A stretch of DNA of 59,340 nucleotides from an uncultured virus (IMG/VR IMGVR_UViG_3300025723_000019) (Duplodnaviria > Heunggongvirae > Uroviricota > Caudoviricetes): positions 62,001 to 121,340 of the IMG/VR virus record IMGVR_UViG_3300025723_000019; one strand, given 5' to 3'. The notes under the pieces were generated by a model, which was not told the DNA's origin, searched no databases, and worked only from the letters and a program-made list of their open reading frames with translations. This document shows, piece by piece, positions 31 to 58,342 of the stretch; the first letter of the stretch is position 1, and each line of letters starts with the position of its first letter. A program made the position numbers and the translations under genes.

Positions 31-420
31 TTATTCTTTCAACGCCTTTCGGATTCTACGCTTTACGTCTTCTACGAGGTCGGGGAAATTGTCGGTAAAC
101 GGTTGTTCAAGGTACTTCGCCTGCGTTGGATACTCGTGGTAAGCATCCAAATCTTCGTGGACAATCACTGCGTAATCCACCAAATTGTCGCCGTAGGTGA
201 TTGACCCACCAACCGTGTTTTCGTCACGGAGCACGGCATCGTCAACTTGGCCACTCATCATCAAATCACCAGTGTCCACTGGGACTAACTCTTGGCTCAG
301 TTGAAAAACGAAGTGCAGATATTCGTTATAGGCATCAACCATTTCCTCCAAAACACGCTTTGGAGCGTTCATCATATTGAACAGGTGGAGCGAGACTTCG
401 GCAGTAAGTTCTTCGGCCAT
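31..420 (-). CDS. tail completion / neck protein (HK97 gp10-like)
   Basis: SQELVPVDTGDL..SG, DYAVIVHE and QAKYLEQP motifs; follows the head-tail genes. Confidence 0.7.
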   Translation of the reverse strand: MAEELTAEVSLHLFNMMNAPKRVLEEMVDAYNEYLHFVFQLSQELVPVDTGDLMMSGQVDDAVLRDENTVGGSITYGDNLVDYAVIVHEDLDAYHEYPTQAKYLEQPFTDNFPDLVEDVKRRIRKALKE

Positions 421-431
421 TTCACTGCCCC

Positions 432-842
432 CTATTCAAAGTGCAGAACGGTGTTGTACCCCGTCAGGCCAGTCTCATCGAAGTTGTTCTCTACATACAT
501 CACCACTGGGTACTTCAAGGATTCCTGCGTCTGGTTTGGGACAACGACCAGACACTCAGTAGTGAGGTTGGGGTAGAAACCGTTGAGGTAGGCACGGCCA
601 GAACTCATCCGGTCACGGCCATTTTCAGTGGCCAGCACCTTCATTTTGTACTCCAAGCGACACTTGTAGGTCACTGGTGGGCCGTATTCCACCGTCGAAC
701 CACTTTGCCCACTGCTGTTGACGTAGTGTCTCCCGTAGCCATCCAAAACCGGTGGGCCACCACCGGGGCTTTTTGCTGCAATCGGGTTTTGGACGATAAT
801 GGTCTGGGTCATTATCGCCAGAAGTTCTGGGTCAATACTCAC
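432..842 (-). CDS. head-tail stopper/closure-like protein
   Basis: 136 aa, beta-rich; lies between the adaptor and the gp10-like gene and overlaps the adaptor stop. Confidence 0.5.
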   Translation of the reverse strand: MSIDPELLAIMTQTIIVQNPIAAKSPGGGPPVLDGYGRHYVNSSGQSGSTVEYGPPVTYKCRLEYKMKVLATENGRDRMSSGRAYLNGFYPNLTTECLVVVPNQTQESLKYPVVMYVENNFDETGLTGYNTVLHFE

Positions 843-1357
843 GGTACATCGTTGCCGTTGTATTCATCGCCGTTGGCATCGGAGTTGTTTTCACCACCAC
901 CGGGGTTGTAGCCCATCCCGTAGGAAGTCGTTGTGCCGAGTTCTGAGTTCGTCGGCCAAGTGTTTTCAGTGAGGATGTACGGGTCAAGGCCACCAACTTT
1001 GAGTTCTGCCCAGAGTGCGTGGGGGTCAACGTTGGCAATCGGGGGATTGACACGACGGCTGCGAATCAGCAAGTCCTTGGCCAGACGCTCAAAACGCTGC
1101 GCTCGGTCACCGTAGCCTTGGCTCAGGGAGAGGCCACCGACGCTCTTGGAGACGTTGGTTGCCTGCTGGGTGAACTTGGCAGCCAAGTTGTAGCAACTGT
1201 TCGATGCAGCACGGTAGACATCCATATTCACCTCAGAGAGGTTGAAGTAGATTTCCTCGTCTTGGAGAAGCGGGTCACCTTCGTTGGTGTCTCCGATGAG
1301 GAAGCGCACGGCATCCTTGACGGAACTGGTTGGGTCTTGCGTGTATGTCCACGTCAT
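839..1357 (-). CDS. head-to-tail adaptor
   Basis: MTWTY..DP, DAVRFLIGDT, LLQDEEI and KSVGGLSLS pattern typical of adaptor proteins. Confidence 0.75.
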   Translation of the reverse strand: MTWTYTQDPTSSVKDAVRFLIGDTNEGDPLLQDEEIYFNLSEVNMDVYRAASNSCYNLAAKFTQQATNVSKSVGGLSLSQGYGDRAQRFERLAKDLLIRSRRVNPPIANVDPHALWAELKVGGLDPYILTENTWPTNSELGTTTSYGMGYNPGGGENNSDANGDEYNGNDVP

Positions 1358-1365
1358 CTTTTCAC

Positions 1366-1698
1366 CTACGACATCACTGGTTGGTCAATACGGATAGAGC
1401 CGGTCAACACACGCTGCTGCGCCGTTGGGCCGTAGGTTGCTGTCACTTGCAAGTACCACACACCGGGGGTCAACTTGTTGAGGTCACCGGGGTTCCAATT
1501 GACAATGAGATTTGGGGCGACGGCAAAGCCTTGAATCCCACTGGTCTTGGTCAAAACGGCTGGACTGGGGAAACGTCCAATCTTCAATTGGAACGACCAG
1601 TCCGGGATGCTGAAATCTATGACGTTCCCCACGGCATCTTCCCAAGTAAATTCCAGTTCTGGGAGACTGGCTGCTGGAGTTGGGTAGTTAATCGTCAT
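1366..1698 (-). CDS. small virion beta-sandwich protein (BppU N-terminal-like)
   Basis: 110 aa; FTWEDAVGNVIDFS...LTPGVWYLQVTAT...VLTGSIRI; structural context. Confidence 0.45.
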   Translation of the reverse strand: MTINYPTPAASLPELEFTWEDAVGNVIDFSIPDWSFQLKIGRFPSPAVLTKTSGIQGFAVAPNLIVNWNPGDLNKLTPGVWYLQVTATYGPTAQQRVLTGSIRIDQPVMS

Positions 1699-1700
1699 TT

Positions 1701-3191
1701 TTATGGGCCGTCCTTGTAAGAGCCTACTCCACCGTCTTCAAAAAGAATTTGGGACATTTCACCATACACCCCAGCAGCCGTTTTTTCGATATACGTTTCG
1801 GGCAGGGGGTTGGTGATGATGCGAGCAAAACTGAAGCACGAAGCGACCTGAACGAGGATTCCAGCACCGTTAACAATTGCTTGCAACGAACGGCTACTAG
1901 ATACGGCTTGCACCAGAGATGCTGCTGAATTGGTCAGGTAGGAAGTCTTCTTGGCTTCGGTCTTGGCCTCTACGAGTTTTGCTGCTCCAGTTTCCCTGTG
2001 AATCGTAGAGCGAACGCCTGCTTCGGCCTGTACGAAGGCCGTTTCACCAACTTCGGTTCGGGTACGCCCGGTTGTTGCAGCCGCAACGAACGTTTGGAAC
2101 GCAGAAGAAAGTCGGCCAAATCCGTGGCTCTTGGTATTGGTTTGCTGCGAGGATTCCACCACTGCCGAAATGGGCCGACGAACGTTTTGGCCCGTGGCTG
2201 CACTGACCAGCACTTCGGCAACTGTTGAAAGGCGTGGCAAGTTTTGCTTCTTGACGGCAGAACTACTTTGGAACAGGGCCGACGAAGAAAGGGCATTGCG
2301 GATTTTTCCACCAGTTGCCTCGGCTGCAAACGTTTCAGATATCGAACCAGTACGGGGAACAGTCCGGGAATCTACGCCATCAGTGGTGAACGTCTCCGTT
2401 GTCGTGCCGTTATTGACGAACGCAGCGATTCGCTGGCTTGTTTGGGATTCCACCAGAGATGCGTCGCTTACTTTTCCACGAATCGCACCATCGGCTGCTG
2501 GAACGGTCTGTTTTGGAAGGAAGCCAGCCATCCAGTACCCAAGGTAGCCAGCCCCAAGTGCGCCAAGGCCAAGGATGCTGTTCTTCTTGTGTTGCTCACG
2601 GGTATTGCGAAGTTCGACGTGGCTGACAAGGTTCCGGGCGTACTGCTTGTTGTTGGTGCTGGATTCAATAACACTCGCTTTTGAAACGACGTTCCTGCCG
2701 TAGACCTTTGGAGCAGCAGTGGTTTCCACTTCAAACACTGCGCTAACAGGGTTCCGTGTGCGGATGTCAACTGCTTGCGAGTTTTGGATTTCACTGGCCA
2801 AACTATTTTTTGTCCGGCTGGTCGCGTCTTCGGCAATGGCCGTTCCGTCTTGTTCCACAATGCTGGAAGCAGACTTTCGTGCAGATTTGTTGCCGTCGGT
2901 GGCTGTTGCTGTTTCTGCAACAGATGAGACAGTTTTGGAAGTGTGCGATGTCGTTCCCTCATCGGTTTCCACCAAAGCGTTGGAACTTGAACGAGCGTGG
3001 ATGACCGAAGTTTCGCCCGTGCTGTTTTCCAAAGCAGGAACTTCAGAAACTTTGTTGTACTTGTGGCTGTCAACGGCTTCGGCTATTTCGATTTCACTGG
3101 AGACGGCGACTTCCCCGATGGTGCGCCCACTGAAGAAGAACTCGGCACCACCAAGGAAAGTCTGTCCAATTTGCTCGTTAGCAAGAGGCAT
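1701..3191 (-). CDS. Ser/Thr/Ala-rich repetitive virion protein
   Basis: 496 aa with loose periodic repeats; directly follows the tail fibre gene. Confidence 0.5.
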   Translation of the reverse strand: MPLANEQIGQTFLGGAEFFFSGRTIGEVAVSSEIEIAEAVDSHKYNKVSEVPALENSTGETSVIHARSSSNALVETDEGTTSHTSKTVSSVAETATATDGNKSARKSASSIVEQDGTAIAEDATSRTKNSLASEIQNSQAVDIRTRNPVSAVFEVETTAAPKVYGRNVVSKASVIESSTNNKQYARNLVSHVELRNTREQHKKNSILGLGALGAGYLGYWMAGFLPKQTVPAADGAIRGKVSDASLVESQTSQRIAAFVNNGTTTETFTTDGVDSRTVPRTGSISETFAAEATGGKIRNALSSSALFQSSSAVKKQNLPRLSTVAEVLVSAATGQNVRRPISAVVESSQQTNTKSHGFGRLSSAFQTFVAAATTGRTRTEVGETAFVQAEAGVRSTIHRETGAAKLVEAKTEAKKTSYLTNSAASLVQAVSSSRSLQAIVNGAGILVQVASCFSFARIITNPLPETYIEKTAAGVYGEMSQILFEDGGVGSYKDGP

Positions 3192-3199
3192 CTAAACCC

Positions 3200-6100
3200 T
3201 TAGGTCGCAATAACAACGATGTAGCCTGCGCCACCATTTCCACCAACGCCAGTTGTTGTGTTGGCAGCAGCACCGCCTCCACCTCCACCTCCACCGTAAA
3301 CTCCGTTGGCTCCTGCTGGAGTTGGAGTGTTGTTGCCGTTTCCACCACCGGCACCCGGCGAAGCGTATCCAAAGGTGCTTCCACTCGTGGCTGCCGAACC
3401 AGAAACAACACCACCAGCACCAACGGTGGACATACCGGGCGAGATGTCTGGCTTTCCACCAGCCCCACCGTTGGAGTTGCCAGTGTTGAAACTGCATCCT
3501 CCACCGCCTCCACCGCCTCCAGTGAAGCCACCAAGGGTTCCCTGCTGAGCATTGGTTCCAGCAACACCAGCAGTTCCTCCAGTTCCCCCATAGCCCCCAA
3601 CGCCACCGTAGAGAACGTTTCCCGAAGTCTGAGCGTTGGTGACCACACCTTGGAAGTTGTAGATGAATGATGAAGTATTGAACTTTCCACCAGTCGAACC
3701 ACCCACCCCACCACTGGCGTAGCAGTAGGAGTTGGTCGCAGCGTTTGTTGAGCCGAAGTAGGTAGTCGCTCCCGTTCCCCCAGCAGCACCAGAAGTTGTC
3801 GTTGATGAGGCACAAGTCCCTCCAGTTCCACCACCACCGATGCCGTAAGGAATACCCGAAGAGATAAGGGACGCGGTGACAGGAATGTCAATAATTGTGG
3901 CATTTCCACCATTCCCGCCAACGCCCCCACTGGCGTAGCCGGTTGTCCCTGCAAAGTATCCACCACCTGCACCCCCACCTCCACCACCAACGCAGATGAC
4001 GTGAAGGTTGGTAGCCCAAGAAGGCACCGTGTAGGTTCCTGTCGTGCCAGCAGTTCCCGTTCCTCCCGTGGTGGAAAGGACCGTGACACTTGACTGTGCC
4101 GACCACGATGCAGCGTTTGTTGCTGAAGCCGTCAGAACTTGACCAGCAGAAGGCGTTCCGCTGATTGCTACACCCTGAACCTTGTTGACCGTGGCTGCTC
4201 CTGTATTGCCAACCGTCACATCACCAGAGAGCGTTTGCGGATTGGAACCAGTGAGCCAGACTGCATTAGTTGAACCGCTGATGCCTTGATACGAAACTGC
4301 CCCTCCTGCTGGAAGGGGGAAGGGTTGCACGGTTGCAGTGCCAGCGAAAGTGACTGCACCGGGTTGAGCCGTATTTGCGATGGTGAAAGTGTTGGTTGCA
4401 CCTGTAGAGGCAATCGTAAACGAACCGTTGTAGGCAGTAGAGCCACCGGCAGAAATGCCACCAAGGTAAACTGTCTGCCCGGTCAAGAAGTTGTGGGTTG
4501 TTCCAGTCGTGACTGTCCAAATGGTTCCGTTGGTGGAAATGCCGCCAACCCCAACGACATAGCCCGCATAGGTCGTGCCGTAAGCGTTGAGGATGCTTGG
4601 TGAACCCGTCACCTGTCCATTCGGCAAGAGGTAAACCGTCTGGGTAGAGCCATTGACGAGGATTTGCGGAATGTAGTTGTTTGTTGAAGCAGAGTTGAGG
4701 GTCAGTGCCGTTGATACGGTTCCGTTATAGACCGCCTTGTTGCCGAGGGTGAGAAGTGTATTCGCAGCAGTGATGTATTGAGTTGCGTTCAGATAGGAAG
4801 TAGCGGTCCAGTTTCCTGTTGAAATAGATGGCTGCACGAAGTAGTTGGTTCCGTCTGTCCAAACCAGTGCTGGAATACCCGACGATAGGTAATACGACGA
4901 TGACAAACCGTTGAGCGTCGCTGGCGAACTTGGTGTAATCGTGAGCGAGCCTGAGCCGTAATAGGTGGCAAGCCAAGGGGCTGAAGGAGCCGTTGCCGGA
5001 AGGGTCACAACGACTGTGCTGCTGAAGCGAACGAACTGTCCGTTATCAGATGCCGAGGCAGTCCAAGTTGTTGCGCTTGTTGCGTTTAGAACACCTGCGA
5101 CGAGACTTGCAGGACTTGATGTTGCACCTGTGACCCGACCCTTTGCGTCTAGTGAAATAATGGCGTGGGAGATAGTCGAACCCGATGAGCCGTAAGTGCC
5201 TGCGCCGGGGCCGGTTGTGGCAAGGGTGGCAGTTCCAGCAGCCGAAACCGTTACGTCGCCAGAAAGGGAAGTGGCTGCCCAAGTTGTGCCACTGAAGATG
5301 TAAACTTGACCAGCCGTTGTTCCGGTGGTGAAGGCTTGTCCTTGCCACGAACCGACACGGGGAGTTCCTGCCGTCGAACCCGTTGCGTTGAGGTCGCCGC
5401 CGAGCGTGATTACACCACTTGCACCCGTCGTAGCATTGGAAATGGAAAGCGTCGTGCCAGAGAGGGAGAGTGGAGCGTTTGCTGTTCCAAACGAACCACT
5501 TGCACCCGTCGCACCCGTTGCTCCTGTAGCACCAGTTGCCCCGGTTGCTCCAGTTGCACCTGTTGCTCCAGTTGCCCCGGTTGCCCCGGTGTTGCCAACG
5601 TTTCCAGCAACGGCAATAGACCACGATGACGGGCTGCCCGAACCAGCGAACGTATCTACGTTGATGGTGATTGACGTATTGGCCGTCAACGCCGTGATGG
5701 TGCCTTCAACGTATTGGCTCGTGTTCGCCGTAGAGATGGCACGAGCGCGCTGTCCAATTTGGAACGCCCCGGTTGAGGTGATACCGGAAAAAACTGCGCT
5801 TCCCGTGCCGAGGTTGACCGTAGAGGTTGAAGTGACACCTGAGTAGCCAGCACCAGTCGGGCCGGTGGCTCCAGTGGCTCCAGTGGCACCTGTGGCCCCT
5901 GTAGGGCCAATCTGGGTGTACATCACTTGCTGTACGGTCAAGATGATGGAAGGCGTAGCAGGGTAATTGCTACCCGCAGATTGAGCCAGTAACGTCACAC
6001 TCGTGGAATTAGATTCCCACATAAGTTGCAAGTAATCGTTGGCTGCGACGGTAAGCACAAAGTTCCACGAGGCAACTTTGTCGCTGTTCTGCTTGTCCAT

Positions 6101-7405: not shown

Positions 7406-7433
7406 CGTCTATCCCCTAGGGGATTTCACCTCC

Positions 7434-8216: not shown

Positions 8217-8270
8217 CTGGTAAAACTCCTATGGGTAAGCGTAGTTGCCCCCCCATTTTGCCACACAATT

Positions 8271-11192: not shown

Positions 11193-11229
11193 ACGGAAAT
11201 CGTATCACCAGTATTGCCGTAAACTGTGG

Positions 11230-47108: not shown

Positions 47109-47137
47109 ATTATGCCTAACCAAAATTCAAAAGTCAA
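47109..47137 (-). promoter_or_regulatory. promoter
   Basis: TTGACT-N17-CATAAT with A/T-rich upstream sequence. Confidence 0.7.
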
Positions 47138-50114: not shown

Positions 50115-50158
50115 ACGTTCATCGTATCGCCAAGTTCGTAAAACCTTTTAGGTGAAAT

Positions 50159-50482: not shown

Positions 50483-50769
50483 TATTCAATCTCCTGATAG
50501 TCCTGACCAAGCACCAATCGGTGCCTTCTGTGCCTGAGCGTCTTTTTGTCTTCGCACCCAGCAAGGGTCATCCCCTGCTTCGCTGCTTCAAGTTCAACGC
50601 TCGCATCTAGTTCTACCTCATCTGCGAGGGGTAGTGGTGCGATTTTGGCGAGGATGTTAGAGCCAGCAGGGATTTCTACCAAGTAGAGCCGGTGCTTGCC
50701 CTTATGCTTCGCCCGGTCACTCTTTGCTGAATAGATGTACCGACGAGCAATGACCGGTTCGCTAGTCAT
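50482..50769 (-). CDS. hypothetical protein
   Basis: 95 aa; overlaps neighbours. Confidence 0.5.
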   Translation of the reverse strand: MTSEPVIARRYIYSAKSDRAKHKGKHRLYLVEIPAGSNILAKIAPLPLADEVELDASVELEAAKQGMTLAGCEDKKTLRHRRHRLVLGQDYQEIE

Positions 50770-51028
50770 CGCTCGGCCTAGGGATTACATCGGCCTGCCA
50801 CCATTCGATGTGGTTCTCCCACTTCGTGGTGACTATCCATCCCTTGGAGCGCAGATAGTCCTCTAGCCGTGCTGCGTCTTCTGCCGTGAACGGAAAGTCC
50901 ACCTCGTACATCGTGATGAAACTGTCCGTGCTGAAGTTCACGCCTTCGGGCAGAACGTGGAGTTCGTAGGGCAACTCGCTCGGTGGGATTGTCAGGGCTG
51001 CTTGCATCATAGGTTCCACCCTACTCAA
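50762..51028 (-). CDS. hypothetical protein
   Basis: 88 aa; overlaps neighbours. Confidence 0.5.
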   Translation of the reverse strand: MSRVEPMMQAALTIPPSELPYELHVLPEGVNFSTDSFITMYEVDFPFTAEDAARLEDYLRSKGWIVTTKWENHIEWWQADVIPRPSDD

Positions 51029-51906
51029 CTTGCTTGGAGAGCAACGTAGTCCTCACCGTCAATGGTGTACTCCACCGGGATACCGGCTTGCAGCATTTCT
51101 GCAAATCGGTTGACAATGGCTTGCTTCACCTCAGTGCGAACTAAATCCCAAGCAGCCTTGACATTCTCGGTGACCTTCTTGGCATCCTCAACGACGTTGT
51201 TTGACGAGGTGAACCACTGCCAGACGCGGCCATCGTTCTCACGGCGCACCGCAGAGTTGACGGCAACGGCGATGCCAGACCGATTCGGGTGGTCGTAGTT
51301 AGGCCCTTCCATCCTCAACCGGGTGCTGATGTTGCCGTCTTCCACTTGAATGTTGTAGTCCATCCGGTAGTAGAAGTAGCCCTGCGAACCTTCTTCGCCC
51401 ACGACCCACTTTGCTGACTGGTGCTGGGAGTTGCCGTTGCCAGTGCCTGCGGTTGGCTCAGGCAACCCGGCTTCCAAAGCGTTGTACAGGTCAATGAGGT
51501 AGTCAATGTTCTGACGGTTGATGTCGGGGATGTCGGACAGGCCAATCACCCTGAACACGTCACGGCGCACGGCGTGTAGGTGCGAAGCCCCGCGTGCGGT
51601 GATTGCTTCGTCAATGGCCTTGATGAACTGGCTAAGGGCTTTGCGCTCTTTATCCGAGGACTGGTCGCGCAGAGCCACGGCCTCGGCGCGGATTTCGTCA
51701 ACGGCCTTAATCGAAATGCTGATGCGCGCACGAGAGAGGTCGGAGTAGTCCAAGTCCATAAGGTCTGCGACCCGGCTACCGGGAGCAATGCCCATCCCAA
51801 CTAGGAGTGGGGTGGAGTTCCAATCTGGTGATGTTGTTGCTGCTTGCTCGGCAGCAATTCTCGTGAGGTACTGGTGGACTGCTTCCTTGTTGTAGGTGAT
51901 GCTCAC
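51025..51906 (-). CDS. hypothetical protein
   Basis: GTG start after AGGAAGGA; own promoter. Confidence 0.6.
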   Translation of the reverse strand: MSITYNKEAVHQYLTRIAAEQAATTSPDWNSTPLLVGMGIAPGSRVADLMDLDYSDLSRARISISIKAVDEIRAEAVALRDQSSDKERKALSQFIKAIDEAITARGASHLHAVRRDVFRVIGLSDIPDINRQNIDYLIDLYNALEAGLPEPTAGTGNGNSQHQSAKWVVGEEGSQGYFYYRMDYNIQVEDGNISTRLRMEGPNYDHPNRSGIAVAVNSAVRRENDGRVWQWFTSSNNVVEDAKKVTENVKAAWDLVRTEVKQAIVNRFAEMLQAGIPVEYTIDGEDYVALQAS

Positions 51907-51941
51907 GGGTTTCCTTCCTATTGAATCCAATGGCTACCCTA

Positions 51942-51970
51942 ATTCTACATTAGGGGTGTGGCAAAGTCAA
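51942..51970 (-). promoter_or_regulatory. promoter (family member)
   Basis: TTGACT-N17-TAGAAT followed by TAGGGT. Confidence 0.8.
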
Positions 51971-52299
51971 GTCACAATGGTGAAGTAGTGAGGGGTCTTG
52001 CCCTTTGGCTGCTCCCACCGGCGACGGTGGGTGGTCGTGGTCTTCTTCGGCAGTGGCCTCAGGGCTGGCCGTGAGACTGGCCGTGGGGCTTGCTGCTGAA
52101 CCTTGGGCATTGCGTAGGGGATGCCGTCGAATTCCTTGATTTTGTACACCACGTCTGCGATGCCTGCGTATCGCTCCACGAGGTCGTATCCCAGAGCGTC
52201 GGCTTCTCCCCGGTAGCAAGTTTTGGTTTCCACCTGCATATCGCCAAGCATTACGGAGACTTGCACGAGGTCGGTTTCGTCATATCTGCGGTTCGTCAT
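51967..52299 (-). CDS. hypothetical protein, leaderless
   Basis: TACACT 6 nt upstream of ATG. Confidence 0.5.
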   Translation of the reverse strand: MTNRRYDETDLVQVSVMLGDMQVETKTCYRGEADALGYDLVERYAGIADVVYKIKEFDGIPYAMPKVQQQAPRPVSRPALRPLPKKTTTTHRRRWEQPKGKTPHYFTIVT

Positions 52300-52344
52300 A
52301 CCCACAGTGTAGCATACTCAACTAAAACCTGCTATAGTGTTGGT

Positions 52345-52755
52345 ATGACAACTGACACCCACACCAAAACGGCACTGTTCTTCGCTTATGGGACATTGCG
52401 TAAGGGACAACGCCTGCACGATTGGATTGCCGATGAGGTGATTCAGGAAGTAGGCACCGGGACAATGAAAGGCGCACGGCTTTTCTACAGTTCTACGCAC
52501 AGAGCGTTCCCCTACCTCGTGATGACCGATAACCCGAACGACAGGGCCGTTGGAGAAATCTACGAAGTACCGTTGAACGATTCCATCCTCGCAATGTTGC
52601 AGATGGAGCAGAACGCTGGCTACACCATTGTCGAAAGTATCGCTGAGTTCGATGGGGTGGAGTACCCCGTCATCGTCTGCGAATGGCGACACGAATACGG
52701 CGAGCCGGTCACCGACAACGACTGGATTGCCGATTCGCGGAAAGAGTGGTGGTGA
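52345..52755 (+). CDS. gamma-glutamylcyclotransferase (AIG2-like) family protein
   Basis: LFFAYGTLRKG, FPYLV, VGEIYEV; TATAGT 6 nt upstream of ATG. Confidence 0.85.
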   Translation: MTTDTHTKTALFFAYGTLRKGQRLHDWIADEVIQEVGTGTMKGARLFYSSTHRAFPYLVMTDNPNDRAVGEIYEVPLNDSILAMLQMEQNAGYTIVESIAEFDGVEYPVIVCEWRHEYGEPVTDNDWIADSRKEWW

Positions 52756-53183
52756 TGATGACAGAGCCACGAGGCTTCGCCAAACTGCTCAACGAGGACG
52801 AGGTGACAGCAATCGCCATCCTCTTTGAGATGACCGACGCACAGGTCGAAGCGATGGATGACGCAGCCCTCGCTCGTCTCTACGACATTGACGTTAGCGA
52901 ACTGCCGTACTACCTACTGAGCAACGAGCGATTCGATGAACTGGTAGACGAGGGGCTGGAGGAATGGGAAGCGGCTCACCTCAGAGACGAGCATCCCGAC
53001 CTGTTCGATGACTTGCTGTTCGATGAAGACGGTCTAATCGAAGACCGACTGTTTGCAGAGAAGTCGCTTGTCCCGATGAAGCCACCGAAGAAGTTCGGTC
53101 AGGACACGTTCCGTTTCCAAAGCCAAATGCGAAAGCACAACCCACCAAAGCCGGTACAACACCACTTTGAATTAGTCAACTAA
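52755..53183 (+). CDS. very acidic hypothetical protein
   Basis: TGATG overlap; D/E-rich with a basic C-terminus. Confidence 0.6.
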   Translation: MMTEPRGFAKLLNEDEVTAIAILFEMTDAQVEAMDDAALARLYDIDVSELPYYLLSNERFDELVDEGLEEWEAAHLRDEHPDLFDDLLFDEDGLIEDRLFAEKSLVPMKPPKKFGQDTFRFQSQMRKHNPPKPVQHHFELVN

Positions 53184-53189
53184 GGAGCA

Positions 53190-53660
53190 ATGATGTTTAC
53201 GTCATACGACGAACTGCTGGAGGCGATGGCCGACAGCCTTGATGAAGACACACTGGACGAAGTGTTCACTAGCCCTGAGCCACTGCCAGAGCCGGAGCAG
53301 GTTTCCACCTGCGCCTGTGGCAATCCTGCTTGTCGCCTAACGTCCAAGGTCGTTCGTACCCCACACGGTACGGCGAGCCGGTACACGAACCACCGATGCA
53401 GGTGCGAGCCGTGTGCTGAAGCGTACCGAGTGTTCCGTAAGCGATATCTCGTGCAGCGACCTGCCGTGTGTGGGTGTGGCAACACGAGTTGCACCCGGCA
53501 TACCCGGCGTGAGGTGAAGCACGGCTTGTCGTGCTACTTCCGGCACCGGTGTCGCTGCGTGACCTGCAAGACAGCGATGCGGGACTACCAGCGTGAGCGT
53601 CGGGAACGGCTCCGTGGTGAATCGGAGCCAGTGGCCGTCACAATGTATCCTGTCGGTTAG
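53190..53660 (+). CDS. protein with a duplicated Cys/His zinc module
   Basis: Two copies of C.CGN..C...HG...Y..HRCRC..C; AAGGAG RBS. Confidence 0.7.
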   Translation: MMFTSYDELLEAMADSLDEDTLDEVFTSPEPLPEPEQVSTCACGNPACRLTSKVVRTPHGTASRYTNHRCRCEPCAEAYRVFRKRYLVQRPAVCGCGNTSCTRHTRREVKHGLSCYFRHRCRCVTCKTAMRDYQRERRERLRGESEPVAVTMYPVG

Positions 53661-53809
53661 TCGCAGCAACTATCTCGCCAGCCACACCCACGGCACTTGA
53701 AGTGGGCGTGTTCTGGCGTGAGTTTTCCACCACAGAGTGGACATTCGGAGAACACAGCAAAGGGGTTGCACTCGGCTTGTACCGGTGTGACCCCTTCAGT
53801 GCTTTCCAC
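53657..53809 (-). CDS. 50-aa CPxCG-type zinc-finger microprotein (below ORF-track cutoff)
   Basis: CPLCGGKLTPEHAHFKCRGCGWRDSCCD. Confidence 0.65.
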   Translation of the reverse strand: MESTEGVTPVQAECNPFAVFSECPLCGGKLTPEHAHFKCRGCGWRDSCCD

Positions 53810-54100
53810 CTAGACCTGCCAAGTGGGTTTCGGCTGCGGAGGGATTTGCAGTTGCTGGATAACCTTCGCTGAGGCCTGCGCCTGCTGAAACGCCTTGTCG
53901 TAGTCGGTGTCAATGCCCTCAGACAGGATGGCCAACACTTCCTCAACCGGCTTCTCGGTAATCATTGACAAGGAGTGGATGGCTCGGTTCAACATCTGCC
54001 GTTCGATGTAGTGAATCTTCTTGATGGCTTCGATGCCCTCATCCACGGCGATTTGCTCAACGGTTTCTTCGTCAATCGGTTGTGGTGAATCTTCAGTCAT
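53810..54100 (-). CDS. hypothetical protein
   Basis: 96 aa; AAGGAG RBS. Confidence 0.55.
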   Translation of the reverse strand: MTEDSPQPIDEETVEQIAVDEGIEAIKKIHYIERQMLNRAIHSLSMITEKPVEEVLAILSEGIDTDYDKAFQQAQASAKVIQQLQIPPQPKPTWQV

Positions 54101-54449
54101 TAAACAACTCCTTCAGGGTCTTTGCGTCTATTCCAATTACTTCCCCGGCCACACGCATTGCTGCCCGAAGTCGTTCCGTCGTGGCCGTGATGATTTCACT
54201 AGCCTTGTTGTCCAAACGGACAACAATTCCTGCGTCATCCAAACTGTCAACCAGTTCGTTCCACGCTGCTCGCTGGATGAGGATGAGTTCCACCGCAGCA
54301 GCCAACGCCATATCAACGGCGATGCTCAACTGCTCGTCATCAGAAAGACCGAACACGTCTCCGGTTGCGGGGTTTGCATCTTCGGGTGCAGTGAAATCTT
54401 CTTGCTGTGGCATCACGATTTCAAAAAATCTGCGAATGACGTTCTTCAC
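54093..54449 (-). CDS. hypothetical helical protein
   Basis: 118 aa in the minus-strand run. Confidence 0.5.
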   Translation of the reverse strand: MKNVIRRFFEIVMPQQEDFTAPEDANPATGDVFGLSDDEQLSIAVDMALAAAVELILIQRAAWNELVDSLDDAGIVVRLDNKASEIITATTERLRAAMRVAGEVIGIDAKTLKELFND

Positions 54450-54454
54450 GGGGG

Positions 54455-54637
54455 CTAACTTACACCTTTTGAGGTGCCGTTGACGGCCCTTAGGAGCATA
54501 TTTACGGTTTCCACCTTGACATATTGCGATTCGATGAAGAACATCACGCTTCCGTTGTAATCTTCAATGCTCCAGCCCGGCGTGGGGGCTTCTTCGTAGG
54601 TGGCAATCCAAGGGGTGGGGTTCTCAAATGGGTTCAT
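54455..54637 (-). CDS. hypothetical protein
   Basis: MNPFENPTPW..., 60 aa. Confidence 0.45.
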   Translation of the reverse strand: MNPFENPTPWIATYEEAPTPGWSIEDYNGSVMFFIESQYVKVETVNMLLRAVNGTSKGVS

Positions 54638-55049
54638 CTTCGTACCCAAGGAGATTGTGGCCCCAGTCCCATCCGTTTGGAACGTCCACTGAAAACGCAA
54701 TGTAGGTCTTGCCATCTTCAGGGATGTAGGTCTGCTTCACGACTTCGTTGACGGCATATCCGACGTTCTTCGCCAAGTCCACGGCCATCTGGTCTGAGAT
54801 TTCACTGCTAGCAAACGCAATAGTCAACGGCTTTGGAACGACTTGCACCCATTGGTAGTCCCCGTCAATAGTCCATAGCCCGTAGGGTTGCCAGCCAACA
54901 GTTTCAGCACTCTTGGTTGCTTTTTCTTGGTCGGTGACCGGGTGCATCGTTGCCAGAGGAACGGAGTGTGTGATGATGCCTTCGGCGTTGAGCAGCGAGA
55001 TTGCCGTGTCTCGTTCTTTGGTGATTTCCAAAATGCAGAGCATTGTCAT
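54624..55049 (-). CDS. hypothetical protein
   Basis: 141 aa; ATGA overlap. Confidence 0.55.
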   Translation of the reverse strand: MTMLCILEITKERDTAISLLNAEGIITHSVPLATMHPVTDQEKATKSAETVGWQPYGLWTIDGDYQWVQVVPKPLTIAFASSEISDQMAVDLAKNVGYAVNEVVKQTYIPEDGKTYIAFSVDVPNGWDWGHNLLGYEDEPI

Positions 55050-55318
55050 TCTTCCTCGTCGGGCGGCAACAACGCTACCAAATCGGCTACTTCTTGTGCG
55101 TGTTCGTGCAGGTGGGCGACACTTTCGCCACTGCGAACGAGACGAACGAATTCCAGCCCCGTCATATTGAGGCGAACCTTGGCGAACTGGTCTACGCCAA
55201 GCCAGATGTCCATAACCGAGAACTCTTTAAGGATTTCACTGCGAACTGCGTCTTCTTCTTCATTCGCCATTTGGAAACCACGGCTCCCCGTTGCGAAGAA
55301 TTGGTTCGCAGCCGTCAA
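55046..55318 (-). CDS. hypothetical protein; true start probably the internal MANEEE
   Basis: Fills the gap between neighbouring genes. Confidence 0.45.
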   Translation of the reverse strand: MTAANQFFATGSRGFQMANEEEDAVRSEILKEFSVMDIWLGVDQFAKVRLNMTGLEFVRLVRSGESVAHLHEHAQEVADLVALLPPDEEE

Positions 55319-55763
55319 TCGGCTCGGTCAAGGTGATTACGTCAACGCCTGCCTCGGACAAGATGAGGTCGGCCAGCAAGGTGCTTTCTTCCCAGTGCAG
55401 ATGGTCAGATTGGCTCGTGTAGCGCACAAGTCTGCTGATGCCTGCCTGAGCAATCGCCCTAGCGCAGTCGGCGCAGGCTGCCCAGACAGCCACCATCGTC
55501 AGGCCCTCGGTCTTCAGGCCGTTTCTAGCAGCCGCGTAGATGGAGTTGCGCTCGGCGTGTTCGACAAACGCGTACTTGGTAGGTCGTACCCAGCGTTTGT
55601 CGAAGTATTCCACCCCAGCCGGGAACTCGTTGACGGCCAATGTCTGTGGGATGAGGGACAAGCCCCTTACCAGCACTGCTGCGTTTTGGGTTGATGGGTC
55701 TGGCGATTGTTGGGCAGTCCTCACGAGGCCAGCCATAATTTTCACCACCGCATCGTGGGTCAC
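55260..55763 (-). CDS. dCMP deaminase-like protein
   Basis: SPDPSTQ, EHAERNSIY, ACADCARAI, L.EAGV. Confidence 0.88.
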   Translation of the reverse strand: MTHDAVVKIMAGLVRTAQQSPDPSTQNAAVLVRGLSLIPQTLAVNEFPAGVEYFDKRWVRPTKYAFVEHAERNSIYAAARNGLKTEGLTMVAVWAACADCARAIAQAGISRLVRYTSQSDHLHWEESTLLADLILSEAGVDVITLTEPIDGCEPILRNGEPWFPNGE

Positions 55764-55969
55764 TTTGACGTAGATGCGTTCTTTGAGTTTGCAATCCCAA
55801 AGAAAATTTGCAACGTTCCACCAAGTGCCAGCGAGTAGCAGAGCGCGCCGATGGCAGGCTTCCAGCCGAAGACGATGAATACGACCAGTGGGCCGAAGAT
55901 GACCGTCAAGCCAAAGGCAATGAAAACCAAAAGGAAAATTGCCAAGACAAAAAATTCCAGCACTTTCAC
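55760..55969 (-). CDS. small membrane protein
   Basis: Two hydrophobic segments. Confidence 0.6.
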   Translation of the reverse strand: MKVLEFFVLAIFLLVFIAFGLTVIFGPLVVFIVFGWKPAIGALCYSLALGGTLQIFFGIANSKNASTSK

Positions 55970-56199
55970 GACAACTTCCTCACCCTCACCGAGACGTAAT
56001 GCTCGTCGTTTTCATCGAAGCCACGCAATTCCAACTCGTCGGACACAACCAACGGAACCTCTTTGGTGAAGGTTCCGTTGGACTGCATCCAAAAGTAGAA
56101 GGGGAACTTGCGCTCAACGTATCCACGGACTTCTTGGCCTGAACTGCAATAGGCCGTAGTCGGTGGCTCGGTTTCTACCACTACTTCGTATCTCGTCAT
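55966..56199 (-). CDS. hypothetical protein
   Basis: 77 aa; GTGA overlap downstream. Confidence 0.5.
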   Translation of the reverse strand: MTRYEVVVETEPPTTAYCSSGQEVRGYVERKFPFYFWMQSNGTFTKEVPLVVSDELELRGFDENDEHYVSVRVRKLS

Positions 56200-56242
56200 A
56201 GGGGTAAGACTACACCCCTAGTCAGCGACGTGGGTGGGGGGA

Positions 56243-56977
56243 TTAAACCTCGATGGTGACGAAGTTGCCGGTGTCGTTGTCCCGGTTCAGGCCGTTGACC
56301 ACGGTTCCTGAATCCAACGTGCAAGTGTAGAACTGGTGAAGGTGGCCGTGGTACGCCGTGTGCGCTCCACAGGCATCCAAAGCAGCCCGAACCCGGTTCT
56401 GGTTCTCAATGGACTTCTCGGCAGCCTGAGGCCCCCACTGGCTCAACTTGCGTCGAAGGCCAGCAGTCTCCTGAACGCCAGTCGGCGCATCGTGGCTGAG
56501 GAAGATATCGGCAGGGCCGTTGCTGATTGACCGAGCAACATCTTCGTCAGTGACCATCTCCTGAGGCCACCACGAGACGTGTGGCTTGCGATACTTGATG
56601 TCCACCGAATACGCCCCACCGAAGGCACGGAAAGTGGTGTCGCCAATCACGAGGTTAGAGCCACGAGACAGGTAGGTGACCCCATCGGCAATGGGGACGT
56701 GACCGTTCTCGTCTTGGTCAAGGTCGAACAACATATCGAAGTTCTCGTGGTTTCCGTCTAGCCAGTAGAACGGCACACCGGTCTGCTGAACCATCTCGGC
56801 AGTTAACGCCGAGAAGTCACACAGCCCATCCGGGCCAATTGACCAGCCGTAGCCGTAGTCGCCCACTTGGATAATGGCAGAGCAATCCCCATAGTGGGCC
56901 TTGGAGAAAACTTGTTGGAGAGCGTGCGGATTGCCGTGCAAATCCCCGGCAAGCAGCACTTTTGTCTTGTTTGTCAT
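56243..56977 (-). CDS. metallophosphoesterase
   Basis: AGDLHGN, QVGDYG, DGNHEN, GGAYSVD, SHDAP, HGHLH. Confidence 0.9.
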   Translation of the reverse strand: MTNKTKVLLAGDLHGNPHALQQVFSKAHYGDCSAIIQVGDYGYGWSIGPDGLCDFSALTAEMVQQTGVPFYWLDGNHENFDMLFDLDQDENGHVPIADGVTYLSRGSNLVIGDTTFRAFGGAYSVDIKYRKPHVSWWPQEMVTDEDVARSISNGPADIFLSHDAPTGVQETAGLRRKLSQWGPQAAEKSIENQNRVRAALDACGAHTAYHGHLHQFYTCTLDSGTVVNGLNRDNDTGNFVTIEV

Positions 56978-56983
56978 ACCTTC

Positions 56984-57012
56984 AGTGTACCTTAGGTGGT
57001 TTCGGAAGTCAA
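56984..57012 (-). promoter_or_regulatory. promoter of a leaderless gene
   Basis: TTGACT-N17-TACACT, 6 nt from ATG. Confidence 0.75.
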
Positions 57013-57094
57013 GTCCCGTTCCAGCATCCGAGCGCAGGGTTCCAAAACGCAGTACGCTGCGTCAAGTCATAACCCGTAGGAAAGGGATTTCACT

Positions 57095-58342
57095 ATGTTG
57101 TCGCTCACGATGATTGTCAAGAACGGCGAGGAACACATCGCCCAGACGCTGGTGTGTGCCAAGGAAATTTGTGACGAAATGATTGTCGTGGACACTGGTT
57201 CTACCGACAAGACCGTCGAAATTGCCAAGTCCTACGGAGCCAAGGTCTTCCACTTTGACTGGATTGACGATTTCAGTGCAGCCCGCAACGAGGCCATCCG
57301 TCACGCCACGGGCGATTGGTTGATTTGGCTGGACTGCGGCGACGTGATTCCACCACAGGCCATCGAAGGGTTCAAGAACCTGAAGATGCAACTGAAGACC
57401 AATAAGGAAGTGGACTTCGTTTGGTGCAACATCAACCGGGGCATCACTGACGAAGGCGTTGTGGTGTTCAAGTTCAACACGCCCCGTTTCTGGCGAGCCT
57501 CGGTCAAGACCAAGTGGATTGGTGCTGTTCACGAATACCTAGACCGTTCCAACGAGAACGCTTTGATTTGGGCCGATGCGTGGGTGGATGACCCGTTGGC
57601 GATGAACAACACTCCGACGGAGCGCAACATCAAGATTCTGCGTGGACTTTTGGATAAGGGCGATGATTCACCACGCACTGCCTACTACTACGCCAACGAA
57701 CTTCGTGACCATAAGCGTTGGGATGAGGCCATCGAAGCCTACGACCACTTCCTGAGCCTGAACCATTTCACTTGGGAGTACTACGACGCTTTGGTTTCGC
57801 AAGCCAACTGCTACCGACAGGGTGACCCTGAGCGCACCAAGGGTGGTTTGGAAAAGGCCGTTGACTGCTACTTCAAGGCAATGCAGTTCACGCCTATCCG
57901 TGCTGAAGCCTACGTTGCCCTAGGGGACATTTCCTACGAGGCCCAGCGTTGGGATGGCGCAGTGCCGTTCTATCGTGCGGTGATTGGGATGAAGCGACCA
58001 ATGGAAGGCTTCGTCATTGAGACTGCCTACACTTGGCTGCCTTGGGACAGGCTGTCCATTTGCTACGGGAATATGGGACTGCTGGAAGAAGCCGTCGAAG
58101 CCACCGAGCGTTGCCTGCGTGAAGCCCCACCGAGCGAGTGGATGCGCTTGTGCAAGAACCTCACGATGTATCACCAAGCCATCCAGCAGAACCGTCAGAA
58201 CTTTGAAGTTTGGAAGGCCCAGCAACAGCAGTTGCTCCAGCAGCAGCAAGATGCTCAGAACGCGGCGAAGCAGCAGAAGGCATTGCCCCCTGCTGCCAAG
58301 CAAGTCTCTAATGGCCGGGTGACCCCGAAGAAGGTTCGCTAG
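57095..58342 (+). CDS. GT2 family glycosyltransferase with TPR repeats
   Basis: LSLTMIVKN.E, VVDTGSTDKT, DDFSAARN, WLDCGD, WIGAVHE, then TPR-like helices. Confidence 0.9.
   Translation: MLSLTMIVKNGEEHIAQTLVCAKEICDEMIVVDTGSTDKTVEIAKSYGAKVFHFDWIDDFSAARNEAIRHATGDWLIWLDCGDVIPPQAIEGFKNLKMQLKTNKEVDFVWCNINRGITDEGVVVFKFNTPRFWRASVKTKWIGAVHEYLDRSNENALIWADAWVDDPLAMNNTPTERNIKILRGLLDKGDDSPRTAYYYANELRDHKRWDEAIEAYDHFLSLNHFTWEYYDALVSQANCYRQGDPERTKGGLEKAVDCYFKAMQFTPIRAEAYVALGDISYEAQRWDGAVPFYRAVIGMKRPMEGFVIETAYTWLPWDRLSICYGNMGLLEEAVEATERCLREAPPSEWMRLCKNLTMYHQAIQQNRQNFEVWKAQQQQLLQQQQDAQNAAKQQKALPPAAKQVSNGRVTPKKVR

What the first reader, a model, noticed from the sequence alone, without database searches (positions are those of the whole stretch)
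419..57772. Genome-wide, strand-biased over-represented DNA word GATTTCACT
Seen by manual count, so a minimum: exact GATTTCACT on + at 2787, 3090, 8923, 17309, 17640, 23171, 24891, 26550, 27252, 30228, 31110, 32066, 32567, 36664, 39315, 40650, 42562, 43928, 54192, 54798, 55232 and 57086 (22). The reverse complement occurs at 7308, 20438, 48393 and 54390 (4). Further ATTTCACT cores lie at 419, 16118, 34736, 39874, 57765 and, reversed, 5151 and 48599. A uniform model expects about 0.23 copies of a 9-mer per strand in 59 kb. In minus-strand genes it is read as Ser-Glu-Ile (16 times) and Val-Lys-Ser (5 times), and reversed as DFT or ISL, so it is a nucleic-acid signal. Inference: a dispersed asymmetric protein-binding site, comparable to mycobacteriophage stoperators, Chi/KOPS-type polar sites or packaging/organisation sites.
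Basis: seen in the sequence. Interest (0 to 1): 0.85.

Follow-up and report, generated by a model that had tools for sequence, protein, structure and literature searches.

The report
Over-represented DNA word in an actinophage
A nine-letter DNA word occurs about fifty times in this large bacterial-virus genome, far more often than chance or the needs of its genes allow, and related viruses share it, so something still unidentified probably reads it.

Summary
GATTTCACT occurs 26 times in the window (22+/4-) and 51 times in the 121-kb phage genome, against fewer than one expected. Five kinds of shuffle do not reproduce the count: dinucleotide, synonymous-codon, dinucleotide-preserving synonymous, codon-order, and two that also respect this phage's extreme restriction-site purge.

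The word bends the proteins. Ser-Glu-Ile is 4-fold over-represented, and 21 of 29 copies are spelled AGTGAAATC.

The strand bias is real but secondary. Against a coding-aware null, both orientations are enriched about equally (10.8x and 17.3x). I therefore do not support a polar Chi/KOPS/stoperator-type reading.

The word is not abundant in 406 sampled Actinomycetota genomes. It is enriched in diverged relatives of the same phage family, mostly at non-homologous places, and its tenth letter differs between lineages.

It is the sharpest member of a set of TG-rich words (TTYCASCA, 281 copies). These words almost never lie within about 45 bp of each other, and relatives show the same gap.

My best reading is a selected, orientation-free recognition word read by a bulky sequence-specific factor. 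Which factor, and to what end, is unknown.

Earlier notes of this scan describe restriction-word purging in other phages. None describes this word.

The parts
2787..2795 (+). GATTTCACT; read as Ser-Glu-Ile in minus-strand gene 1701-3191
3090..3098 (+). GATTTCACT; SEI in gene 1701-3191 (-)
7308..7316 (-). GATTTCACT on the minus (coding) strand; T-I-S-L in gene 3200-7405 (-)
8923..8931 (+). GATTTCACT; SEI in gene 8812-9324 (-), DUF1003 protein
17309..17317 (+). GATTTCACT; SEI in gene 17180-17455 (-)
17640..17648 (+). GATTTCACT; SEI in gene 17580-18521 (-), N6/N4 DNA methylase
20438..20446 (-). GATTTCACT, non-coding; directly abuts the ATG of minus-strand gene 20255-20437
23171..23179 (+). GATTTCACT; SEI in the 2070-aa gene 21815-28027 (-)
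24891..24899 (+). GATTTCACT; G-V-K-S in gene 21815-28027 (-)
26550..26558 (+). GATTTCACT; V-V-K-S in gene 21815-28027 (-)
27252..27260 (+). GATTTCACT; V-V-K-S in gene 21815-28027 (-)
30228..30236 (+). GATTTCACT; SEI in gene 30153-30458 (-)
31110..31118 (+). GATTTCACT; A-V-K-S in gene 30467-32842 (-)
32066..32074 (+). GATTTCACT; SEI in gene 30467-32842 (-)
32567..32575 (+). GATTTCACT; SEI in gene 30467-32842 (-). Five relatives have GGTGAAATC (GEI) at this place
36664..36672 (+). GATTTCACT; SEI in gene 36604-37194 (-)
39315..39323 (+). GATTTCACT; SEI in gene 38877-40703 (-), protease-domain protein
40650..40658 (+). GATTTCACT; SEI in gene 38877-40703 (-)
42562..42570 (+). GATTTCACT; A-V-K-S in WhiB gene 42501-42884 (-)
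43928..43936 (+). GATTTCACT; SEI in gene 43700-43960 (-)
48393..48401 (-). GATTTCACT, non-coding; lies between a GAAGGGG ribosome-site-like run and the GTG of ORF 48026-48388 (-)
54192..54200 (+). GATTTCACT; SEI in gene 54093-54449 (-)
54390..54398 (-). GATTTCACT on the coding strand; D-F-T in gene 54093-54449 (-)
54798..54806 (+). GATTTCACT; SEI in gene 54624-55049 (-)
55232..55240 (+). GATTTCACT; no gene in my calls, but the minus strand reads SEILKEF here
57086..57094 (+). GATTTCACT, non-coding; directly abuts the ATG of plus-strand glycosyltransferase gene 57095-58342
1..59340 (.). Background in which the word sits. TTYCASCA (reverse complement TGSTGRAA) occurs 134 times in the window. Enriched words keep about 45 bp apart. 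AGCT, CATG, GATC and CCWGG are wholly absent

Best explanation
GATTTCACT(R), reverse complement (Y)AGTGAAATC, is a positively selected, exact, double-stranded DNA recognition word of one family of large WhiB-encoding actinophages.

Shown:
- Copies lie wherever the coding sequence tolerates them, in either orientation, in five reading frames and in non-coding DNA.
- They cost rare codons and altered amino acids.
- Diverged relatives carry the word mostly at non-homologous positions.
- The strand bias follows from almost all genes lying on one strand and from the SEI/VKS readings being the easiest to accommodate.
- The word belongs to a wider class of TG-rich words (TGSTGRAA and kin) whose members almost never lie within about 45 bp of each other.

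Inferred:
- Extra sites near an existing one bring no benefit, so each site acts over roughly 50 bp. That is what a bulky sequence-specific protein, or an enzyme that docks on the word, would give.
- What docking achieves is not established. Possibilities are marking phage DNA as self against a nuclease, packaging choice, coating, or modification or nicking.
For: Enrichment:
- 26 in the window against 0.42 expected.
- 37/14 in the genome against 0.59/0.46 under an order-2 Markov model; it is the top 9-mer, z = 47.
- Synonymous shuffles give 8.6/5.6, codon-order shuffles 5.5/5.3.
- Dinucleotide-preserving synonymous shuffles give 17.8/6.9, max 24/10.
- Restriction-avoidance-constrained chains give 9.1/5.6 and 5.5/5.2.

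Sharpness:
- 51 exact copies, against 68 for all one-mismatch variants together; the best single variant has 13.
- Position 10 is a purine in 48 of 51 sites, and the flanks are otherwise uninformative.

The word overrides coding:
- The SEI tripeptide occurs 29 times against 6.8 expected, and 21 of 29 are spelled AGTGAAATC, about 1.4 expected.
- AGT-GAA is used in 8 of 114 Ser-Glu pairs not followed by Ile, but in 23 of 29 that are.
- Non-coding density is 11 sites in 17,429 nt; coding density is 40 in 103,911 nt.

Both orientations are enriched: 10.8x and 17.3x in coding DNA.

Relatives:
- 33 of 69 portal-linked IMG/VR loci carry the word.
- Whole records hold 37 sites in 108.7 kb, 26 in 85.2 kb and 8 in 95 kb, but 0 in 75.3 kb and 0 in 69.5 kb.
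- A motif-only scan recovered two further family members: 27 sites in 16.7 kb and 9 in 15.8 kb.
- Shared positions are few: 0 of 7, 0 of 9, 1 of 8 and 2 of 8 sites of L033, L052, L015 and L011 align to a site of ours.
- Orthologous places read GEI, AEI or TEI, one base away.
- Position 10 is A in 25 of 27 sites of L159, against G in 35 of 51 here.

Exclusion zone:
- Pairs among 332 TTYCASCA and GATTTCACT sites at 0-45 bp number 3 against 40.8 expected, and counts are normal beyond that.
- 41 frequent 6-mers used as controls have a median ratio of 1.03.
- 13 relative loci show 4 against 64.5 at 0-45 bp and 6 against 21.5 at 45-60 bp.
- The exclusion holds between different words and between opposite orientations.
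Against: - No binder was identified and no binding was tested.
- Presence of the DNA methylase does not track the word: a 79%-identical copy sits in a record with 0 sites.
- The terminase small subunit is present in one word-bearing and one word-free record.
- The ParB-like protein was found only in word-bearing records, but it was also missing from two other word-bearing fragments. All these records are 13-87% complete.
- There is no local cluster of sites that would mark an operator or an origin.
- A contiguous exact 9-10-bp asymmetric site in about 50 copies matches no characterised phage protein known to me.
- The broader TTYCASCA enrichment is partly predicted by lower-order words (Markov order 5 gives 35 of 76). 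Small actinobacterial genomes show a 3-5x excess over the control, so part of that class may be codon context rather than a site.
- The host is unknown, and the genomes searched are a sample.
- The avoidance-constrained nulls cap only the total count of avoided words, not each word separately.
Confidence: 0.45

Rival explanations
1. A polar, orientation-dependent site. It would be a stoperator-like block to transcription, or a Chi/KOPS-like signal read by a translocating enzyme in one direction.
For: 37:14 strand bias in the genome and 22:4 in the window. Within genes, 29 sites have AGTGAAATC on the sense strand and 11 the opposite. Relatives show 52 sense to 24 antisense. G407 has 8:0.
Against: Fold enrichment over the coding-aware null is no higher for the favoured orientation (10.8x against 17.3x). 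Other relatives show 14:23 and 16:10. 40 of 51 sites lie inside genes, many of them deep inside long genes. No orientation switch was seen, and spacing is Poisson. No integrase or immunity repressor turned up in the Pfam or PHROG scans. The PHROG scan covered only 54 of my 138 called proteins, all from the first 42 kb.
Confidence: 0.1
2. A by-product of this phage's extreme purge of restriction-type words, combined with strong codon-context bias. On this view the word is simply one of the few safe spellings left.
For: AGCT, CATG, GATC and CCWGG are entirely absent (0 against 354, 212, 372 and 260 expected), and about 110 words are at 20% of expectation or less. Codon-pair bias is extreme: GGT-GGA 86 against 17.9, GAC-GCC 1 against 49. 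GAA-ATC is forced by the loss of GATC (92 of 124 Glu-Ile pairs). Many other words are also inflated.
Against: Shuffles that never let the total count of purged words rise still give only 9.1/5.6 (synonymous) and 5.5/5.2 (codon order), against 37/14; 11 of those null counts are fixed non-coding sites. 4-mer and 5-mer statistics predict 0.9 and 3.3 copies. AGT before GAA is chosen only when ATC follows. Non-coding DNA has the highest density. Relatives with different purged sets share the word.
Confidence: 0.12
3. A word of the host chromosome (uptake sequence, Chi, or an architecture-imparting word) that the phage has adopted.
For: The features resemble USS/DUS and Chi: an exact 9-10-mer, both orientations, preferred reading frames, presence in coding DNA. 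Which word is enriched changes with the G+C content of the relatives, as a host-linked trait would.
Against: In 406 Actinomycetota genomes the largest count is 41 per genome. Phage-like density would give about 800-1,200. Four apparent clusters in those genomes are ordinary cellular DNA. TTYCASCA reaches at most about 0.38 per kb in 151 genomes, against 2.3 per kb in the phage. The motif-only scan of viral contigs returned only members of this phage family as clearly enriched.
Confidence: 0.07
4. Molecular drive without a cellular function. A biased process would convert near-matches to the exact word and spread it, as uptake bias does for USS. Candidates are preferential packaging or replication of word-rich DNA in mixed infections, or biased short-patch repair.
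For: Sites arise at places where relatives are one base away (GGT, GCT or ACT followed by GAAATC). Positions turn over between relatives. Density differs 4-fold within the family. The exact word is strongly preferred over its variants.
Against: A drive still needs a sequence-specific reader, so this overlaps the main explanation. The 45-bp exclusion points to a local saturating benefit rather than a count-based drive. No candidate mechanism is encoded in any recognisable way.
Confidence: 0.13
5. An RNA-level signal in the messages, such as a small-RNA seed target, a ribonuclease site or a ribosome-pausing element.
For: Most copies put AGUGAAAUC in the mRNA (29 of 40 genic sites). Seven non-coding copies lie within about 22 nt of a start codon.
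Against: The antisense orientation is enriched at least as strongly against the null. No Rfam family and no unusually stable fold was found in the one intergenic region I folded (z = -1.0). The exclusion holds between opposite orientations.
Confidence: 0.04

Closest known systems
Stoperators of Cluster A mycobacteriophages (L5, Bxb1)
   Same: Dozens of copies of a short asymmetric word are spread over an actinophage genome. The consensus is lineage-specific and drifts between relatives (passages read in PMC6550527).
   Different: Stoperators are 13 bp, number 20-30, are oriented with transcription, and are bound by the immunity repressor of a temperate phage. Here the word is 9-10 bp and occurs 51 times, 40 of them inside genes. 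Both orientations are equally enriched once coding is allowed for. No repressor or integrase was recognised.
DNA uptake sequences (USS of Pasteurellaceae, DUS of Neisseriaceae; recalled, not looked up)
   Same: An exact 9-12-mer core in both orientations, inside genes in favoured reading frames, at about one per 1-2 kb. One-base-off variants are far rarer.
   Different: Those words belong to the bacterial chromosome and are driven by competence. Here the word is abundant in a phage family and not in the 406 host-phylum genomes searched.
Chi sites and KOPS/SRS polar words (recalled)
   Same: Over-represented asymmetric 5-8-mers read by a DNA-translocating enzyme. A Chi-like role as a self-mark against a nuclease is one possible purpose.
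   Different: Those are host-chromosome words with an orientation tied to replication. Here there is no host enrichment and no polarity beyond what coding predicts.
Restriction-site avoidance in virulent phages (Rusinov et al. 2018, PMC6286503; abstract read)
   Same: This genome is an extreme case: 0 AGCT, CATG, GATC and CCWGG, and about 110 purged words. That shapes every word count in it.
   Different: Avoidance removes words. The finding is a word that is added, and avoidance-aware nulls do not produce it.
Sequence-specific nick sites of T5-like and some Pseudomonas phages (recalled)
   Same: A short asymmetric consensus is dispersed in a phage genome and read by a phage enzyme. Nicks too close together would be harmful, which could give a minimum spacing.
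   Different: Known cases have a handful to about 15 sites. No nicking enzyme was recognised here beyond one weak HNH hit. Read-end data could not be obtained.

Membership tests
Stoperator/operator system (Cluster A mycobacteriophages) | 13-bp asymmetric site, 20-30 per genome | tested here: not met
   The informative length is 9 bp plus a purine at position 10. There are 51 copies. The family definition comes from passages of PMC6550527.
Stoperator/operator system (Cluster A mycobacteriophages) | Sites predominantly in one orientation relative to transcription | tested here: inconclusive
   The raw ratio is 29:11 in genes. Fold enrichment over the coding-aware null is 10.8x against 17.3x, so there is no excess polarity.
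Stoperator/operator system (Cluster A mycobacteriophages) | A cognate immunity repressor in a temperate phage | tested here: not met
   No integrase or repressor family appeared among my 138 called proteins in Pfam, or among 54 of the 138 in PHROGs. Small HTH proteins exist but are uncharacterised.
DNA uptake sequence (USS/DUS) | Hyper-abundant in the chromosome of the (competent) host | tested here: not met
   The maximum is 41 copies per genome in 406 Actinomycetota genomes. The host itself is unknown, so this applies only to the genomes searched.
DNA uptake sequence (USS/DUS) | Exact core, both orientations, tolerated in coding frames | tested here: met
Chi | Over-represented in the host genome and read by RecBCD/AddAB/AdnAB from one side | tested here: not met
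   There is no host-phylum enrichment. Enzyme recognition cannot be tested with these tools.
KOPS/SRS-type polar words | Skew that follows the replication arms and switches at the terminus | tested here: not met
   No switch was seen. Orientation follows the gene strand and coding constraints. Cumulative GC skew rises monotonically over the window.
DnaA boxes | TTATCCACA / TTGTCCACA-type 9-mers | tested here: not met
   Canonical boxes occur 0-3 times, as in the shuffles.
Restriction-site avoidance | Short, mostly palindromic words far below expectation | tested here: met
   Met for AGCT, CATG, GATC, CCWGG and many 6-mers. This describes the genome's background, not the enriched word.

The most novel reading that the evidence does not exclude
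A virus-owned 'signature word' system. This actinophage family writes a family-specific exact word, plus weaker TG-rich relatives of it, into its DNA at most once per about 50 bp. A bulky phage-specific factor reads these words to tell phage DNA from host DNA. The purpose could be to spare phage DNA from a nuclease that destroys host or rival DNA, or to choose it for packaging. It would be the viral counterpart of Chi or uptake sequences, and word and reader would co-evolve between sub-lineages (tenth letter G or A; other words in lower-G+C relatives).
Probability: 0.22. Interest if true: 0.9.

Novelty: new variant of a known kind. Interest (0 to 1): 0.72.

Why it matters
Dispersed recognition words such as Chi, uptake sequences, KOPS and stoperators have each revealed a DNA-handling machine. 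Here a 9-10-mer is selected strongly enough to reshape protein sequences across a 121-kb phage genome. It recurs independently in relatives and keeps a fixed minimum distance from kindred words, yet it matches none of the known systems.

It occurs in a phage family that also shows some of the most complete restriction-site purging I have seen. The two may be parts of one strategy for handling host defences.

The word gives a direct handle for finding the unknown reader, by oligonucleotide pull-down or by allele-word association. It may also serve as a cheap sequence signature for assigning metagenomic fragments to this family.

Tried and rejected
- DnaA-box reading: canonical boxes are not enriched.
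- Operator or origin cluster: no 400-bp stretch holds more than 6 matches at up to 2 mismatches, and no stretch holds more than one exact copy.
- Composite site with TTYCASCA at a fixed offset: none; instead, no TTYCASCA lies within 40 bp.
- Second motif in the flanks: nothing beyond the adjacent 1-2 bases.
- Small RNA or known RNA family at non-coding copies: none. The only Rfam hit is an unrelated Pistol ribozyme, and the fold of L001:6857-7067 is ordinary.
- tRNAs as a host clue: none found.
- Host clue from the portal protein in species genomes: the best hit is 53% identical, with no close relative or prophage.
- Apparent clusters of the word in G067, G384, G110 and G191: ordinary cellular DNA with normal GATC content.
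- GACGACAGTT in L014/L019 looked like another lineage word. It is a local acidic Asp-Asp-Ser-Ser protein repeat.
Beyond two family members it gave only tandem repeats and one marginal AT-rich contig, L215 (5 sites, 2 of them by ascertainment).
- Closest cultured relative, Arthrobacter phage Kovu: 0 copies in 50 kb.
- Determinant by gene presence: methylase, ParB-like protein and terminase small subunit were all inconclusive.
- Literature: 0 papers hold either spelling of the word. Three other searches and passages of the COBRA paper on whiB actinophages (PMC10914622) mention no such motif.
- Earlier notes of this scan hold nothing on this genome.

Full report
**What the window is.** The window is bases 62,001-121,340 of a 121,340-bp virus record. 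A 127-bp terminal overlap suggests a circular or terminally redundant assembly (listed as direct terminal repeats). It is a tailed phage of an actinobacterium:
- Pfam and PHROG scans find two WhiB proteins, a GH25 lysin with peptidoglycan-binding repeats, a Mu-type portal, SSB, a Cas4-like nuclease, an N6/N4 DNA methylase and a dCMP deaminase in the window.
- The first half holds terminase large (with an intein) and small subunits, a two-domain ParB-like protein, an SNF2 helicase, a Sak4-like protein, RusA, Mu Gam and a DnaD-like replication initiator.
- The closest cultured relatives are Arthrobacter phages at about 66-68% nucleotide identity over 13-21% of a 5.3-kb query.

Nearly all genes lie on the minus strand. 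I called genes with my own crude ORF caller (138 genes, 85.9% of the genome).

**The observation.** All 26 listed positions are right: 22 on + and 4 on -. 100 dinucleotide shuffles average 0.42 copies. The reading-frame tallies (16 SEI, 5 VKS, DFT/ISL when reversed) are right. Genome-wide there are 37+/14- copies, and this is the most over-represented 9-mer (z = 47 against an order-2 Markov model).

**Is it more than coding and composition?** Every null I could build falls short of 37/14.

| Null model | + strand | - strand |
|---|---|---|
| Within-gene synonymous shuffles | 8.6 | 5.6 |
| Codon-order shuffles | 5.5 | 5.3 |
| Synonymous shuffles keeping every dinucleotide | 17.8 (max 24) | 6.9 (max 10) |
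| Markov models of order 3 / 4 (+ strand only) | 0.9 / 3.3 | not given |

About 11 copies in each shuffle null are non-coding sites that cannot move.

The proteins themselves are bent:
- Ser-Glu-Ile occurs 29 times against 6.8 expected, and 21 of the 29 are spelled AGTGAAATC where codon usage predicts about 1.4.
- AGT-GAA is used in 8 of 114 Ser-Glu pairs not followed by Ile, but in 23 of 29 that are.
- The rarer Lys codon AAA is used in 9 of 12 Val-Lys-Ser tripeptides.

The word is sharp. There are 51 exact copies against 68 for all 27 one-mismatch variants together, and the best single variant has 13. A purine follows in 48 of 51 sites, and the flanks carry no other information. Non-coding DNA has the highest density: 11 sites in 17.4 kb against 40 in 103.9 kb.

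**The strand bias.** In coding DNA the + orientation is 31 observed against 2.87 expected, and the - orientation 9 against 0.52. That is 10.8-fold and 17.3-fold. The bias is therefore what one expects when genes lie on one strand and SEI/VKS are easier to fit than DFT/ISL. Relatives show 14:23, 16:10, 8:0, 19:8 and 7:2 on their contigs. Pooled over 13 relative loci, the peptide spectrum is the same: SEI at 44 of 94 sites, DFT at 12. Long-range spacing is Poisson (CV 0.95, max gap 10.5 kb). I see no polarity that needs explaining.

The genome has no AGCT, CATG, GATC or CCWGG at all, where synonymous shuffles expect 354, 212, 372 and 260. It has one GASTC and 8 GGWCC. Most 6-bp palindromes that shuffles predict in double figures are also absent, along with several asymmetric type IIS-like words. 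In total about 110 words are at 20% of expectation or less. Codon-pair use is correspondingly extreme: GGT-GGA 86 against 17.9, GAC-GCC 1 against 49. Relatives each lack their own set of 4-mers, and AGCT is missing in all close ones. This is restriction-site avoidance (abstract of PMC6286503) in a very complete form.

It explains part of the word. GAG-ATC is forbidden, so Glu-Ile is GAA-ATC in 92 of 124 cases. It does not explain the whole word. Chains of synonymous or codon-order swaps that never let the total count of purged words rise give 9.1/5.6 and 5.5/5.2. These chains cap only that total, not each word, so they are not the last word on this question.

**Other inflated words, and a spacing rule.**
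- TTYCASCA (reverse complement TGSTGRAA) occurs 281 times (134 in the window). Against synonymous shuffles, coding DNA alone gives 165/89 observed against about 18/17 expected.
- It is less specific than GATTTCACT: a Markov model of order 5 already predicts 35 of the 76 TTCCACCA copies.
- Small actinobacterial genomes show a 3-5-fold excess over a reversed control. They reach at most about 0.38 per kb, against 2.3 per kb here.

These words and GATTTCACT avoid one another at short range:
- Among 332 sites, 3 pairs lie 0-45 bp apart where 40.8 are expected. Counts are normal from 45 bp on.
- No TTYCASCA lies within 40 bp of any GATTTCACT; from the counts I expect about 9.6.
- 41 frequent 6-mers used as controls have a median ratio of 1.03. 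The lowest ratios belong to sub-words of the same class.
- The gap holds between different words and between opposite orientations, so it is not a matter of repeat instability.
- Other frequent words that share the exclusion are all of the TGSTGR type.
- The gap is reproduced in 13 loci of relatives: 4 against 64.5 at 0-45 bp and 6 against 21.5 at 45-60 bp.

If sites exist only because selection favours them, and a second site near an existing one brings nothing, close pairs should occur only at the unselected background rate. That is what is seen. I take this to mean that each site acts over roughly 50 bp.

**Relatives and hosts.**
- Portal-based retrieval gave 69 IMG/VR loci, and 33 carry the word. 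All but one of these have G+C of about 51-59%; L022 (46% G+C) has a single site.
- Relatives with 45-52% G+C and similar portal identity have none, and show other top words: TGCTGAAA 18:2 in L046, and TTTCCAAAC in L043 and L049.
- Whole records hold 37, 26, 8, 0 and 0 copies.
- Relatives at about 72-77% nucleotide identity carry the word mostly in DNA that does not align with this genome, or at other positions. A minority of sites is shared.
- Orthologous codons elsewhere read GGT, GCT or ACT followed by GAA-ATC.
- A scan of the viral collection for two copies 60-90 bp apart returned two more members of the same family as its only clearly enriched hits. One has 27 copies in 16.7 kb and A rather than G at position 10 in 25 of 27.
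- In 406 Actinomycetota genomes the word never exceeds 41 copies. Thirteen of those genomes are flagged unpublished, and I use only the pooled statement. Apparent clusters there are ordinary DNA.
- Arthrobacter phage Kovu has none in 50 kb.

The word is thus a trait of a phage lineage, not of any host-phylum genome I searched. The host itself remains unknown.

**Who reads it?** I could not tell.
- Presence of the methylase does not track the word.
- The terminase small subunit occurs with and without the word, and its N-terminal 51 residues do not align in either case.
- The ParB-like protein was found only in word-bearing records (G406, L159, L184 and this genome). It was also missing from two word-bearing fragments.
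- All these records are partial.
- There is no site cluster that would mark an operator or an origin, and canonical DnaA boxes are not enriched.
- No literature mentions the word.
- Read data could not be used.

**Verdict.** Its asymmetry is a consequence of coding. It fails the membership tests for stoperators, uptake sequences, Chi, KOPS and DnaA boxes.

The most likely account (about 0.45) is a selected, orientation-free recognition word for a bulky, family-specific DNA-reading factor, with the TG-rich words as weaker members of the same class. The purpose of the reading is open.

The main rivals are:
- a residue of the word purge that my nulls did not capture (0.12);
- a drive-like process (0.13);
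- true polarity (0.10);
- a host word (0.07);
- an RNA signal (0.04).

Noticed in passing
window 1-59340 and the whole genome (G000): AGCT, CATG, GATC and CCWGG are wholly absent. GASTC, GGWCC, CTCGA and GTWAC are nearly absent, as are most 6-bp palindromes. About 110 words are at 20% of the synonymous-shuffle expectation or less. Relatives lack different sets of 4-mers.
   Followed up: partly
whole genome; 134 sites in the window: TTYCASCA (TGSTGRAA) occurs 281 times in all frames and both orientations. It and kindred TGSTGR words, together with GATTTCACT, almost never lie within about 45 bp of each other. Relatives show the same gap.
   Followed up: partly
whole genome coding sequences: Codon-pair bias is extreme: GGT-GGA 86 against 17.9 expected, GAC-GCC 1 against 49, GCC-GCC 5 against 49. 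T|G junctions are favoured (1.37) and T|A disfavoured (0.47).
   Followed up: partly
window 16342-16403 (+): Rfam Pistol ribozyme match over the full model length: 50.5 bits against a gathering score of 34.5.
   Followed up: no
L001:3608-4936 (-) and L001:2979-3629 (-): The terminase large subunit is split in my ORF calls and carries Hint/intein domains.
   Followed up: no
window 20438, 48393, 57086: Three non-coding copies sit directly (0-4 nt) upstream of a start codon, between a ribosome-site-like run and the start. In the first half of the genome, four reverse-oriented copies sit 16-22 nt upstream of starts.
   Followed up: partly
L001:6964-7079: The closest pair of copies in the genome (107 bp apart, inverted) flanks the 3' end of the terminase small-subunit gene. 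The gap also holds two copies of a 14-mer, GCAACAACGACGGC.
   Followed up: no
L159 (IMG/VR contig, 16,683 bp): This relative of the early/replication region has 27 copies of the word, one per 618 bp. Position 10 is A in 25 of 27.
   Followed up: partly
L014:5027-8334, L019:12307-16661: GACGACAGTT recurs 11 and 6 times on one strand. It comes from local Asp-Asp-Ser-Ser low-complexity protein repeats, not from a dispersed word.
   Followed up: yes
L179:10001-10342: An unrelated viral contig holds 22 copies of the word in a tandem array with 9-bp and 18-bp steps.
   Followed up: no
G406 (record of L052): This relative carries two adjacent copies of the N6/N4 methylase gene, 76% and 66% identical to the window's.
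   Followed up: no
L001:342-2207 (+): An amidoligase and a class-II glutamine amidotransferase sit side by side at one end of the genome. With the dCMP deaminase and the deoxyribosyltransferase-like gene in the window, they hint at nucleotide or DNA-base chemistry.
   Followed up: no
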